NCBI GenBank assembly: GCA_051362555.1
Contig: CM120646.1
Coordinates: forward strand, 14,012,001-14,076,000
DNA: 64,000 nt
Direction of reading: 5' to 3'
From: Lingula anatina
Lineage: Eukaryota; Animalia; Brachiopoda
The position numbers and the translations under genes are program-made. Under the pieces are notes generated by a model. It saw nothing but the letters and a program-made list of their open reading frames with translations. It did not search any database and had not been told where the DNA came from. The first letter of the stretch is position 1. Each line of letters begins with the position of its first letter. Positions 30,601 through 36,600 of the stretch are shown piece by piece.

Positions 30601-33600
30601 GTGACAAATGACAAGAAATTTCTCTCCAGCAAATTCTTATGTTGTTGTCCCAGTTTGTTCCCCTGCCTGTGCTGAATTTGGTCACAGGTTTAAGAAATTT
30701 GAAATGCCATTGTCAGAATTGATGGCACTTTTAGCACCTGATTTGACTGCAATCTTCAAGTTTCAGCAAATTTTAAAAGAAGTCACGTGGTCTTATGTGA
30801 GTGATCATGTTCACTGCAGTGGAAGGAGTGATATCTTTATCAATTACTATTTGAACGAAATATTATTCCTAAAGCAATTCACAATTGTAAATCATTTAGT
30901 ATTTTTATTGTTTGCTGATATTGAGAGTGTCATTGTCCACAGTGGGTGCATTCACATCTGTTTTAACTAACCTTTGCATTGTAGTTGTATCTAGGTATAG
31001 TGTTGACGGCCGTGGTGCTGGTCACAGGCTGCTTCTCCTACTACCAGGAGGCCAAGAGCGCCAGGATCATGGACTCCTTCAAAGAAATGATACCTCAGGT
31101 GATGATGGCGAGAGGAAAAACACAACACAATATTTATTCATTTATAAATAAACCCCATAAACAACAACAACAATCCTTCAATATGGAGTTCGCTTTTAGG
31201 TGTTTGTTGAGGAGATTGATTCTCCTCCAATGGTCATCCCTTATCATTCACCAGCACAGACTTGTGAGTCGGACTACCACCTTTTTCAAGTCTGACTTTT
31301 CTTCATCAGTGCCACTGACTGCCACCAGGGGGCAGTGCAATGCAAGAGGATCATGCATGGCATGAGATGCTATACATGTAGCATGTTGGCTGGCATAGTT
31401 AACAAGTTAACCAATGGCTTTTTGATTTTCAGCTTATTGCTTTGGCTTTTCAGCAAGTGTGGCAGAGAAAAGAAAACCTTTCGGTCGATTGTAGATTAGA
31501 TACATTATTAGTGCTGAGAGGCTTTTCGATTTCAGGTGCATGTGTTGAGTGTGTATATATTATTATATTTTCATCAGAAAAGCTGCTTTGATGAGCATTC
31601 CATGTTTTCTGTATGTGTCTCCGGAAAATTTGAAAGCAATTATTAGTATTATTTGAGGGCAGGGAAATGTACTTTTGACTGAACTGCAAGTGGATGGTAA
31701 CTTTTTTATTTTTATATTTTAACATACCTGCTCAGTGCTTTTATTAACTGGGCTGTTTGTATTTTACTGCCATAGCCTGCATGCTTTTTACTGCCAAGTT
31801 TCAGAGTGTAGAAGGATATGGATTGTTGGCATATGTGTATAACTGATGCTTCTTATGTGTTAGATGTCTGAGTTTACTCTAGGGTAAGAATTCAATTGCC
31901 AAAAGCTGATTTTTTTTTTTTTTTCAAATCAAAAATTTTAACTTGATCAATGATAAAGTAGGTAAAGTTAAATTAAAAAAAAACTTATTCTTTAACCAGT
32001 ATCAAAATTTTTTTAAGCACTTGGCTAAAACTTCCTACCCTAAAGTGACCCTAGGATTAAGCAGGGAATACAGACAACTAAAATTAACATATCACATGAA
32101 GATACAGGAAAATTCATATTACACACATCACCAGGCTAGGTTGTTTCACAAAATAGTGAATATGAAAAAAAAAGGAAGAAAGAAAGAAGCAAGAATATCT
32201 CAATGTAAAGAATGTTCAGGAGGTTTTTTTTTTCCGAATGCCCTACAAACAATTCCAGATACATTTCTTTCAGATAAAACGTTTCATAACTGAAACAAGG
32301 GAGGCAATGAATGCGGATTGGATGTTAATAAGTTACTGAAGAAAGTAATAGGAAAAACCTCAAAATAGCATTTGAAAAAAATTCAGAATTTAACCTGTGC
32401 TCCTCCATTTTGTTTCCTCCCAGTTATACCTAGGTATAGTGTTAACGGCTGTTGTCGTGGTGACCGGATGTTTCTCATACTACCAGGAGGCCAAGAGTTC
32501 TCGCATCATGGACTCGTTCAAGGAGATGATACCTCAGGTGAACAAAAGTCAAGGTCATGACCCTCAAGGTCGCAGACCTGAAGGCTGTAGCCAGCTCATT
32601 GAAAAGAAAACTCTCTGCACCAGATTTGTCAACCAACTTTTCAATTAACTTGCACAAATTTTTCTGCACTTTTCTTTTTTGTCTCCAAAGATTCCTTTTA
32701 TCGATTTTCCCTTTTCACAGTCTTAATCTTACTTGCACTTTTTATCTTTCTTGGCAAACCAGTGGATTTTGTAATTTTCATATCAGATTTTCCCAGTTTG
32801 GATATTGTACAACAGTGAATGGTTTATGGATCCCATGATGTTGTATACACTGTGAAATAAAAAACACAAGCACAAATTAAAACAAAATAACTGCATGTTT
32901 AACTGTATTGAGGAAGCAAGAGTGCATGTTATGGCTTTCTCATGTATTATATTTATTTAGCTACAGACTGGCTAAATGCTGCTATATTTAAGCTGCTTAT
33001 AACCCACCCACGACTTTGTAAATGTCTCATCATGTCTTTAACTCTGCACTTCATTCACCCTGGCTTCTTGTCTAGTTTGATGCTTGACAAAAATTATATT
33101 AAAAAAAGATGGAAACTGCTCAGGTCTTCATTCTTTGTATTATCTAAGTTATATTACCACCCCCAGTTGCTTTGTTGTGAATTACCTCTGTATGTTGATT
33201 TTTATAGTCCCAGTCATTTCTTCATCATCTCATTATCACACTCTCTCCTCCATGTCGTATTGTCATTTGTTGCCATGCTCATCATCTTTGATGTTCATCA
33301 TTATCTCCACTCAAAGCACAAAAATTGTGCTACATCATATGTAAAGTATTGTCATAGTCTAGAGGTGACAGTCTAGCATGAAGGAAGTCATTCACCACAG
33401 TAGTGAAGGTAAGAAAAACCCACAGACATTAATGTCAGACATGCCTGTATGTGAAGAGATTGAAATACTGTGTATTTAGTATATATAATGAACATATTGG
33501 AATATCAAGTGGATGGTAGAAGTAAGTTGTCCTGTGTATGGCTTATGTACTAGTAAATTCTCTGTTTCAGGTTTATCTGTATGCTTAATTGTGACTTCAC

Positions 33601-36600
33601 TGTAACCCACCTGGGGTTCTGCTGTAGTTAGACTGCACCTTTTAATAATCCAGCACTAACAATCTGGTTTTCTTTAGCCCATGCAGCCTGTCTGTACACG
33701 CATAGAATGCTGACCTGTGATTAGACTGTACGTGTATGATATATTGATTAATAAGTGGGCTTCATCACTTTAAGTCACTGGATAGTGTAGAGATTGTAAG
33801 ATGATATTACTGTATCATTTGCAGAATTTTACTCTCGTATGTAGATCTACTTCTGTATCCAGTGACTAAAGGTGTTTTTACTGCCATTGTAATGCACACA
33901 GTAGTATAGATATGTAGAAAGATATATCTGTCTATATGTGCCTGTATAGTAGCTAGACATTGCTGTAGATAACGTGCCACTTTCAAGCTTTCTTTCTCCT
34001 TCTGCAGTTCACCTTAGCATGTCATTTGACAAGGGACAGGACTCCAAGAATGCAGTCAAGACTTTGACAATGTCAACTTGTGTGTGTGACAAGTTTAACA
34101 AAACTTTCAGGATGAGAATCTTGTTATGTGTACTAACCTATTCCATTACCTCTCCTCCCTCCATGTTGCTGCCATCCCTTGCTTGTGCCCTACAAATGTG
34201 CATCGTGGTTTGTGCGCGTGCAGCTGTACCTGGGGTGCGTGCTAACAGGTGTGGTTGTGGTGACGGGTGTCTTTTCGTATTACCAAGAGGCCAAGAGCTC
34301 TAAGATTATGGAGTCGTTTGCCGAGATGCTGCCGCAGGTGACAAGAGTGGACTTGTGTGGACATGTTTTCCCATTCATTATTATCCTGTGTTAAATTAGA
34401 GAACTAATTTTTGGGTTAAAAAGTGGATTTTTTGGTGGATTGTGTGTACTAAATTTTAGATATTTTATGTAAATAATGTGGAATTTTTTTCTGTTTGAGT
34501 GCATCTTGTGAGTCTGTGTCACAGTTATTTTAATTCCGCTGACAGTTTTCTCAAATGGCAAGCTGAGTATTGTGCAAAAATTGTAGATGGTAAATTTTGA
34601 GAGTTGTTGTTCTCAGTGACTGCTTGCTTTGTTCTCTCCTGTTTGTGAGACTTCTAGGTGTGCATCCTTTTTGCATACCCTGTCTTCTATGTTATATGGA
34701 TTGCAAATGCATGTGATTTTACACTAACTGCAGTTGGCAAACCGTGGTATCTGATCACAAGGATGTAAATGGCAATTTGATTGGATTTGTGTGTGAACTA
34801 ACTATTCTTTCTTTTCCTTCTTTTATGCTTCTGTATTGCCTATAAATCTTCAACATCAGAAGTCTATGTTTTCTAGTGACATTTTATTTCCGTATGCTTA
34901 TGTGTGCAGCATAATTTTTAAACTGCTTAGCTAAAATATATTTCCTTTCTCTCTCTCACTTTCCCCTATAGCTCTACCTAGGTTTAGTTCTCTCAACTGT
35001 AGTCTTAATCACGGGAGTGTTTGGGTATTATCAAGAATCAAAGAGTTCTAAGATCATGGAGTCTTTCATGAAGATGCAGACTAAGGTAGGGCCAGGTTTC
35101 CCAGGTGCCTAAGTTGGATACGTTTTAGCAGTTACAGAGTTCATTCTAAGAACTAATGCGTACTAGATGAGCAAAAAACATATTATGGTTTTTTAATGTT
35201 TGATATTACCGTTGTTGATCTTGGAATGCTTATTGCTGTTATTGATGTTCCTATCTTAACCACCATTTATAAATTTCAACATGTTGAAGTGTTAACACCT
35301 TATAATCCTTTAAAAAACTGAAAGTGGGGACATGTTTGTCGGAACTTACATTAGATCAAAGGTAGGTGTCATTTTATTCTTTGCCTGTTGAAGAGTTCTT
35401 CAAAAGAATTGGTCTCCCTGGGCAGTTATTCTTCAGTTATTATTGATCCAGTTGCTATTTTGCATATTGAAGATCTTATGTTCAAATCACAGGTTACTTT
35501 TTGGGCTCTATATTTTCCTTTCATTTTTCATATGTTTCATAACATCATTCTTGTTTCATTTCGATTGCATTTTTCTATTCAAGCTCTTTTTACCTTTTAC
35601 TTTCAACTTGGCATTCTTTCATATTTTTTTTTTCAATTTCATCATAGAAATATTCATATTCCACATAAGATGCACATCCAGAGTTATGCACACTTTGTGC
35701 TGTGAAGTTTGATGGATCCAGTTGATTTCTTGTACTTTCCTCCGAGTATCCAATTTTTGTTGTAACATCTATTTTTTAGAATTACGTAAATTTAAATTCT
35801 TTATTTTAAATCTTGGATGAAAAAAAAAATCATTTGAAGTTTAATAAATAAAAATAACTACTCTGATAAAGAAGTGTCAGTAACATAAAGAAGATAATTA
35901 AACTTGTTCAGGAACAAATTGGTAATAAGTATTGTATTTCATCAGTATGCTCTGGTGAAGCGTGATGGTCAGCTGATAGAAGTTCGTGCGGAGACCTTGG
36001 TTGTTGGTGACATCATCGAGGTGAAGTTTGGGGACAGGGTTCCCGCAGATATTCGGGTTATCAAGGCGCATGGATTCAAGGTGATTGTTATTTTGATAAA
36101 ATCAGTGACGTTACAGTGATGAGATTAAAACAACTTTAGGTACTGTTTACTCACTGAAATTGTGCCCAAGACTAATTTATTATTATTATTTTTTTTTATC
36201 AAAATAGTAGCAGTTGTTCAATTCTTGTAAATTTTCACTATGTAAGGGGGGGGGAGATGATTTTTAGTATATTTAGAATTTTAGAACAGCACTTTTTTGT
36301 TTGTAGATATCTTGATCTGATTTTCAGTACCTTGTTAGATTTTAAAACTTGCATAGGAAGAGATGGCATAAATTAGTGCAATTGAAACTGATATGTATAC
36401 ATTGGTTGCGATATTCTTCAGTTTAAAATGATACACCCGATCGTGAAATGGGTGTATGATAATATTGGAAATATCTTGACCTTGTGCATCTTTCTCTAGG
36501 TGGACAACTCCTCCCTGACAGGAGAGTCTGAGCCTCAGACCAGACTGCCAGAATTCACCAGCGAGAACCCTTTGGAAACTAGGAACCTGGCCTTCTTCTC

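What the first reader, a model, noticed from the sequence alone, without database searches (positions are those of the whole stretch)
30985..35085. Four tandem, mutually exclusive-looking TM2 exons in the Na+/K+-ATPase alpha gene
Seen in sequence: four 114-bp, phase 0-0, AG/GT-bounded paralogous exons (30985, 32424, 34224, 34972) sit between the TM1 exon (ends ...PPGDN) and the A-domain exon (YALV...). Each encodes TM2 plus the M2-to-A-domain linker. None has a stop or indel. Copies a and b differ at many synonymous positions but only two residues, which suggests purifying selection. Inference: including two copies would duplicate a transmembrane helix and invert topology, so splicing should be mutually exclusive, giving four pump isoforms from one gene. 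Established knowledge: Drosophila Atpalpha has a mutually exclusive cluster, but on the M6-M7 exon. The equivalent exon here (42548-42642) is single-copy, so this cassette looks independently evolved. The variable segment directly follows the cardiotonic-steroid-binding H1-H2 loop (Q111 and N122 equivalents are retained) and couples to A-domain movement, so it could tune kinetics across tissue or salinity.
Basis: partly seen in the sequence, partly recalled or inferred. Interest (0 to 1): 0.88.

Follow-up and report, generated by a model that had tools for sequence, protein, structure and literature searches.

The report
Swappable helix exons in sodium pump
The sodium-pump gene of a lamp shell (Lingula) carries four intact copies of the exon for one membrane helix: two are each spliced straight onto the next exon and are likely used one at a time, the other two are preserved but were not seen spliced, and gene models suggest the same exon is doubled in many insects, crustaceans, a worm and an oyster.

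Summary
Observation confirmed: four 114-nt, AG/GT, phase 0-0 copies (a-d) of the TM2 exon, all intact, with unrelated introns; no other exon of the gene is duplicated. The gene is the Lingula anatina (brachiopod, not mollusc) Na+/K+-ATPase alpha. RefSeq already lists single-copy isoforms with b (X1) and a (X2), none with c or d. In 4 shallow RNA runs, all 22 listed reads entering the A-domain exon came from a or b: 19 b in two runs, 3 a in another. None came from c or d. Direct a-to-b joining was not tested. c and d show purifying selection, so rare or tissue-limited use is likely but unshown. 'Independently evolved' is not established: the same exon appears doubled in protein records of an annelid, a bivalve, seven pancrustacean lineages and a scorpion, and the tree is unresolved. 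No docking helix was found. Ten paper searches found the M6-M7 cluster described, not this one. Verdict: a real mutually exclusive cassette, a new member of a known kind; four isoforms not proven.

The parts
30196..30399 (+). Constant TM1 / H1-H2 loop exon (holds Q111 and N122 equivalents); upstream partner of the cassette
   Evidence: Sequence; tblastn of RefSeq protein
30985..31098 (+). TM2 exon copy a (RefSeq isoform X2; L134, A148 in pig numbering)
   Evidence: 3 reads in run X4 run from its 3' end into the A-domain exon
32424..32537 (+). TM2 exon copy b (RefSeq isoform X1; closest to the consensus, keeps 23 of 23 near-invariant columns)
   Evidence: 6 reads in X1 and 13 in X2 run from its 3' end into the A-domain exon
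34224..34337 (+). TM2 exon copy c; not in any of the 4 RefSeq proteins, intact, keeps 22 of 23 near-invariant columns, 105-nt AG-free zone upstream
   Evidence: no joint listed, depth equal to one 150-nt unspliced read in X1
34972..35085 (+). TM2 exon copy d; not in any of the 4 RefSeq proteins, most divergent (G140, M155, Q158, T159, K160 seen in 0 of 95 relatives), keeps 21 of 23 near-invariant columns
   Evidence: zero depth in bin 35020-35140 in all four runs
35946..36080 (+). Constant first A-domain exon; common acceptor of the cassette
31354..35157 (+). Candidate intronic regulatory words: 6 TGCATG (5 in the introns after a and b) and 6 ACTAAY around c and d; weak, post hoc
   Evidence: 6 vs 2.7 expected, p 0.053; ACTAAY 7 in all five introns vs 2.7, p 0.027; 7 motifs tried
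42548..42643 (+). M6-M7 exon, single copy here (multi-copy in arthropods)
29168..44451 (+). Na+/K+-ATPase alpha gene, residues 11-1046 of XP_013405520/21 (exon for residues 1-10 not located)

Best explanation
The Lingula Na+/K+-ATPase alpha gene has four intact tandem copies of its TM2 exon; copies a and b each splice directly onto the A-domain exon and are likely used one per transcript, while c and d are preserved by selection and likely used only in tissues or stages not sampled here. Shown: the anatomy, selection on all four, a- and b-type junctions that skip the downstream copies, and all-b versus all-a runs. Inferred: one copy per mRNA (a second TM2 helix would wreck the topology); use of c and d (about 0.6). 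Inferred mechanism of choice (about 0.4): exons with weak donors are off by default and one is switched on by cell-type RNA-binding proteins, RBFOX-type sites after a and b and QKI/HOW-type sites around c and d. Steric blocking and nonsense-mediated decay do not fit the anatomy. Inferred effect: the swap changes the cytoplasmic end of M2 and the M2-A linker (residues 148-160), so it would tune E1/E2 turnover rather than the ouabain sites 111 and 122.
For: Anatomy. All 4 RefSeq Lingula proteins are 1046 aa with exactly one copy, two with a and two with b. Reads (4 of 9 listed runs): loose ends at the A-domain acceptor match b in X1 (6 reads) and X2 (13) and a in X4 (3), agreement 1 in each; a and b differ at positions -13, -16 and -22 (match read by eye). 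a-type reads skip b, c and d; b-type reads skip c and d. 3:0 versus 0:19 gives Fisher p 6.5e-4. Selection: pS 0.62-0.90 versus pN 0.035-0.26 in all 6 pairs, Fisher p <= 1e-3 in the 5 pairs tested; 0.2 neutral changes per site would keep 21 or more of 23 invariant columns with P 0.004. Introns between copies are 1325, 1686 and 634 nt with AG-free zones of 35-105 nt, and 114 is a multiple of 3. Owenia and Oratosquilla have isoform pairs differing only in this exon.
Against: No c or d junction among 22 listed reads (upper 95% bound about 13% of transcripts in these samples) and none in RefSeq. Copies a and b were not in the stretch laid, so TM1-to-copy joints and a-to-b joints are untested, and the 19 b reads could in principle follow a. 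Depth was only 8-14 reads in three runs and about 1 in X7. The tool drops human-like reads silently, which probably undercounts a. Tissue is unknown and confounded with study and population; reads may not be independent. d changes P159, invariant in 95 of 95 relatives, and 0.1 neutral changes per site is compatible with it (P 0.12). Motif enrichment does not survive correction for 7 motifs, and TGCATG is not enriched over the gene's other introns (p 0.19). No functional data.
Confidence: 0.7

Rival explanations
1. Only a and b are live alternatives; c and/or d are recently silenced relics that were under selection for most of their history.
For: 0 of 22 listed junction reads and 0 of 4 RefSeq proteins use c or d; d carries five residues unseen in 95 relatives, including T for invariant P159; c has a weak pyrimidine tract (0.55).
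Against: Both keep exact length, AG/GT, an open frame and 21-22 of 23 near-invariant columns despite near-saturated synonymous sites; the RNA sample was four shallow runs of unknown tissue.
Confidence: 0.3
2. Origin rival 1: the TM2 cassette is ancestral to protostomes and has been kept, lost or expanded, Lingula expanding it to four.
For: Same 38-residue exon doubled in Owenia, Pinctada, Oratosquilla, Homarus, Armadillidium, Ladona, Ephemera, Frankliniella, Timema and Centruroides records. One copy has A149 in 7 of 7 pancrustacean lineages, so it is old there. Pinctada, Owenia and Lingula each have a V138/K149 copy and an R149 copy.
Against: Tree of 26 rows has 0 of 22 starred branches. Copy order differs between Pinctada and Lingula. 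E156 is shared by Lingula a, b, c and absent in 95 relatives. No second variant was seen in the clusters for Mytilus, pulmonate snails, Mya, Haliotis, Liolophura, Platynereis or Dimorphilus. Other species' genomes were not inspected.
Confidence: 0.4
3. Origin rival 2: this symmetric, single-helix exon is a duplication hot spot, doubled separately in pancrustaceans, annelids, bivalves and brachiopods.
For: Lingula-private E156 in three copies; no diagnostic residue links arthropod and Lingula copies (A149 versus A148); patchy presence in molluscs.
Against: Gene conversion or co-adaptation to one protein background would give the same pattern; protein clusters cannot show unannotated exons, so absence is weak.
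Confidence: 0.5
4. Exclusivity is enforced by competing RNA base pairing (docking site and selectors), as in Dscam-type clusters (mechanism recalled).
For: Steric and decay mechanisms do not fit, and this is a common solution in arthropod clusters (recalled).
Against: In 15 intron pairs the best ungapped helix never beat the best of 12 shuffles, and no site paired strongly with several introns. The test is weak: ungapped, introns only, one species.
Confidence: 0.25
5. Assembly artefact or routine double inclusion.
For: The assembly holds the gene on two scaffolds; some other species' gene models join two copies head to tail.
Against: Copies are only 68-94 of 114 bases alike with unrelated introns; both a and b appear in reads; both scaffolds have a- and b-type isoforms; the head-to-tail records are most likely automatic mis-joins (inference).
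Confidence: 0.03

Closest known systems
RefSeq isoforms X1/X2 of this gene (XP_013405520.1, XP_013405521.1; also XP_013379613.1, XP_013379614.1)
   Same: The same gene; X1 has copy b and X2 has copy a, differing only by L164V and A178S.
   Different: c and d are in none of the four; this is automatic annotation, and no paper on it was found.
Arthropod Na+/K+-ATPase alpha M6-M7 mutually exclusive cluster (barnacle exon 11a/b, tick exons 16/17, four copies in Drosophila)
   Same: Same gene, tandem homologous exons, two to four copies, one per transcript (PMC3793950 passages; PMC4748274 passages); seen again in crustacean isoforms at residues about 830-873.
   Different: Different exon. Lingula has that exon single; the cassette here encodes a whole membrane helix plus the A-domain linker.
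TM2 exon pairs in other protostome protein records (Owenia CAH1797436/7, Oratosquilla RefSeq isoforms, Pinctada KAK3107351, Homarus, Armadillidium, Ladona, Ephemera, Frankliniella, Timema)
   Same: Same 38-residue unit with the same borders; copies differ at residue 149 in 9 of 10 lineages.
   Different: Two copies visible there, four here; none resembles d; seen only as protein models.
Dscam, Mhc and tropomyosin-type mutually exclusive exon clusters (recalled)
   Same: Tandem duplication, equal length, same phase, one-of-n choice.
   Different: No docking helix detected and no steric arrangement.

Membership tests
Na+/K+-ATPase alpha subunit | Domain set and identity to annotated alpha subunits | tested here: met
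Tandem-duplication mutually exclusive exon cluster | Adjacent homologous exons of equal length and phase with valid splice sites | tested here: met
Tandem-duplication mutually exclusive exon cluster | At least two copies are each spliced to the common flanking exon | tested here: met
   a (3 reads) and b (19 reads) into the A-domain exon; RefSeq X1/X2
Tandem-duplication mutually exclusive exon cluster | Never two copies in one transcript | tested here: inconclusive
   a reads skip b-d and b reads skip c-d; no joint into c or d listed; a-to-b not covered. All 4 RefSeq proteins carry one copy
Tandem-duplication mutually exclusive exon cluster | Every copy is used (four isoforms) | tested here: inconclusive
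   0 of 22 listed reads from c or d at depth 8-14 in samples of unknown tissue; selection signal present
Docking-site/selector clusters (Dscam type) | One intronic site pairing competitively with a selector at each exon | tested here: inconclusive
   No helix above shuffles in 15 intron pairs; weak single-species test
Docking-site/selector clusters (Dscam type) | Covariation of the pairing across species | not testable with these tools
   No related animal genomes are held
Steric-hindrance pairs (tropomyosin type) | Branch point too close to the upstream donor (about 50 nt; threshold recalled) | tested here: not met
   Introns 634-1686 nt with AG-free zones of 35-105 nt
Decay-enforced pairs | Double inclusion shifts the frame | tested here: not met
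   114 nt, phase 0-0
Arthropod M6-M7 ATPalpha cluster | Duplicated M6-M7 exon | tested here: not met
   Single copy

The most novel reading that the evidence does not exclude
The TM2 exon of the sodium pump is an overlooked protostome-wide splice switch, kept from a common ancestor or re-made repeatedly, that resets residues 148-149 and the M2-A-domain linker to give cell-type pump kinetics from one gene. Lingula has expanded it to four working forms, including a strongly divergent d form lacking an otherwise invariant proline.
Probability: 0.35. Interest if true: 0.7.

Novelty: new member of a known kind. Interest (0 to 1): 0.48.

Why it matters
Vertebrates diversify the sodium pump with paralogous genes (recalled), and the described invertebrate splice variants affect the N-terminus and the M6-M7 exon. 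A second cluster that swaps a whole membrane helix and the linker to the actuator domain, seen in three phyla besides brachiopods, gives natural one- to few-residue variants with which to test how the M2-A linker sets pump kinetics. It also explains over-long gene models in several genomes, and it lies next to the loop studied for cardiac-glycoside resistance, so alignments in that field should treat it as alternative. The kind of system is well known and a/b are already in RefSeq, which limits the surprise.

Tried and rejected
No whole genome is held, so no related genomes could be scanned. No indexed RNA holder was listed; raw-read runs were used instead. A protein search with copy d found no d-like relative among 37 candidates (weak). 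A tree of 26 TM2 peptides was uninformative. Competing RNA helices were not above shuffles. Motif counts were marginal. Of 18 proteins with two TM2 hits among 306 held, 6 were dropped: 5 whole-gene fusions and one bat model with an identical internal repeat. The scorpion pair is identical in protein and may be an artefact. Earlier scan findings: nothing in 3 look-ups. Ten paper searches found no description of a TM2 cassette. Three papers were not held, and the alignments of PMC6733596, which would name its two masked exons, cannot be read here. No structure was predicted: solved relatives already place the segment.
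Full report
Observation. The four exons are present as described: a 30985-31098, b 32424-32537, c 34224-34337, d 34972-35085. 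Each is 114 nt, AG/GT-bounded, phase 0-0 and open. Copy a matches residues 123-160 of mature pig alpha-1, that is TM2 and the linker towards the A domain (the structural label is recalled). Only these four copies exist in the window. The introns are unrelated, and no other exon of the gene is duplicated.

Identity. An N-domain exon is 100% identical to a RefSeq protein of the brachiopod Lingula anatina. Its cluster holds four 1046-aa RefSeq proteins from two scaffolds. On each scaffold X1 carries copy b and X2 carries copy a; none carries c or d. The window matches the scaffold with G585. The two scaffolds differ by one residue and are probably haplotypes (inference); reads cannot be assigned to one of them.

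RNA. Four of nine listed raw-read runs were laid on 32600-36200, which holds c, d and the A-domain exon but not a or b; 26, 18, 3 and 28 reads were laid in X1, X4, X7 and X2. Loose ends at the A-domain acceptor match the 3' end of b in X1 (6 reads) and X2 (13), and of a in X4 (3), each with agreement 1; X7 gave none. I read these matches by eye, using the diagnostic positions. So a is spliced over b, c and d, and b over c and d. No joint was listed (threshold 3 reads). d had zero depth over its 3' part in all runs, and the depth on c in X1 sums to one 150-nt read running into the intron. With 0 of 22, c plus d are under about 13% in these samples. The all-a versus all-b split (Fisher p 6.5e-4) suggests regulated choice. 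The limits are real: tissues are unknown, study and population are confounded, depth is 8-14 reads, silent removal of human-like reads probably undercounts a, and a-to-b and TM1-to-copy joints were not covered.

Selection. Synonymous differences are near saturation while replacements are few: a/b dS 1.3, dN 0.036; pS 0.62-0.90 and pN 0.035-0.26 over all six pairs; Fisher p <= 1e-3 in the five pairs tested. Against 95 distinct TM2 segments from relatives, 23 columns are near-invariant; b keeps 23, a and c 22, d 21. Neutral drift of 0.2 changes per site would keep 21 or more with P 0.004, but 0.1 does so with P 0.12. So c and d were constrained for most of their history, and recent silencing is not excluded, least of all for d, which has five residues seen in none of the 95 relatives.

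Other animals. Owenia has two 1045-aa products differing only in this exon (6 residues), and 3 of 15 listed Oratosquilla isoforms use a second version. Of 306 proteins held, 227 had a TM2 hit and 18 had two. Six were dropped as fusions or an internal repeat, leaving 12 models with tandem copies from Pinctada, Homarus, Armadillidium, Ladona, Ephemera, Frankliniella, five Timema species and Centruroides (identical copies, doubtful); Strigamia and Gryllus models begin with the tail of an upstream copy. One copy has A149 in 7 of 7 pancrustacean lineages, and the two copies differ at residue 149 in 9 of 10 lineages, although that column is variable anyway (K 50, R 33, A 11 of 95). No second version was seen in the clusters of Mytilus, pulmonate snails, Mya, Haliotis, Liolophura, Platynereis, Dimorphilus, Saccoglossus or Macrobrachium (15 of 22 members listed), which is weak because unannotated exons are invisible there. 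These are protein models; I saw no genomic DNA for them. The tree cannot separate ancient from repeated origin (0 of 22 starred branches). E156, shared by Lingula a, b and c and absent from 95 relatives, favours local expansion or homogenisation.

Mechanism. Double inclusion keeps the frame, and the introns are 634-1686 nt with short AG-free zones, so decay and steric blocking do not fit. No intronic helix beat shuffles (weak test). By elimination, regulation by RNA-binding proteins is the best guess (about 0.4). TGCATG occurs 6 times against 2.7 expected (p 0.053), five of them after a and b. ACTAAY occurs 7 times against 2.7 (p 0.027), six of them around c and d, and a shared 9-nt word holding it lies 63-64 nt after both c and d (p about 0.01, post hoc). 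The RBFOX and QKI/HOW labels are recalled, and none of this survives correction. Q111 and N122 are in the constant exon. The variable residues cluster at 148-160, so an effect on conformational cycling is inferred, not shown.

Literature. The M6-M7 cluster is in print (PMC3793950 and PMC4748274, passages seen). [quoted passage not shown] Passages of PMC11765297, PMC10028858, 10.1101/542811 and PMC13143231 added nothing. Ten searches found no account of a TM2 cassette; most subscription papers are not searched, and three were not held.

Verdict. New member of a known kind; interest 0.48.

Noticed in passing
window 33810-34172: Sense-strand intronic reads (depth 1.5-3.5) in runs X4 and X2 end just before copy c, near its ACTAAY at -92. 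Only a few molecules; may be pre-mRNA, lariat or chance.
   Followed up: no
window 34400-34408 and 35149-35157: The same 9-nt word containing ACTAAT lies 63-64 nt after both c and d (p about 0.01, post hoc); possibly a relic of their duplication or a shared regulatory site.
   Followed up: partly
RefSeq XP_013405520/21 and XP_013379613/14: The gene is annotated on two Lingula scaffolds differing by G585A; likely uncollapsed haplotypes.
   Followed up: partly
P0084, P0108, P0131, P0161, P0201, P0202, P0203, P0205: Public gene models join two TM2 exons head to tail; probably mis-joined alternative exons.
   Followed up: partly
P0203 (Frankliniella fusca): The downstream TM2 copy is strongly divergent (long branch 0.34), a parallel to Lingula d.
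   Followed up: no
window 10566-11585 (-): Uninterrupted 340-codon open frame with lactate/malate dehydrogenase domains, unusually long for an exon in this intron-rich region.
   Followed up: partly
window 57939-58235 (-) and 61135-63670 (+): DAZAP2-family match and cullin-family exons.
   Followed up: partly
window 51930-52160 and 54960-55130: GC-rich arrays of related 11-57 nt units, possibly a small mobile or satellite element.
   Followed up: no
window 35966, 36017, 36044: Reads differ from the window at three places in the A-domain exon, in run-specific proportions; most likely alleles.
   Followed up: no
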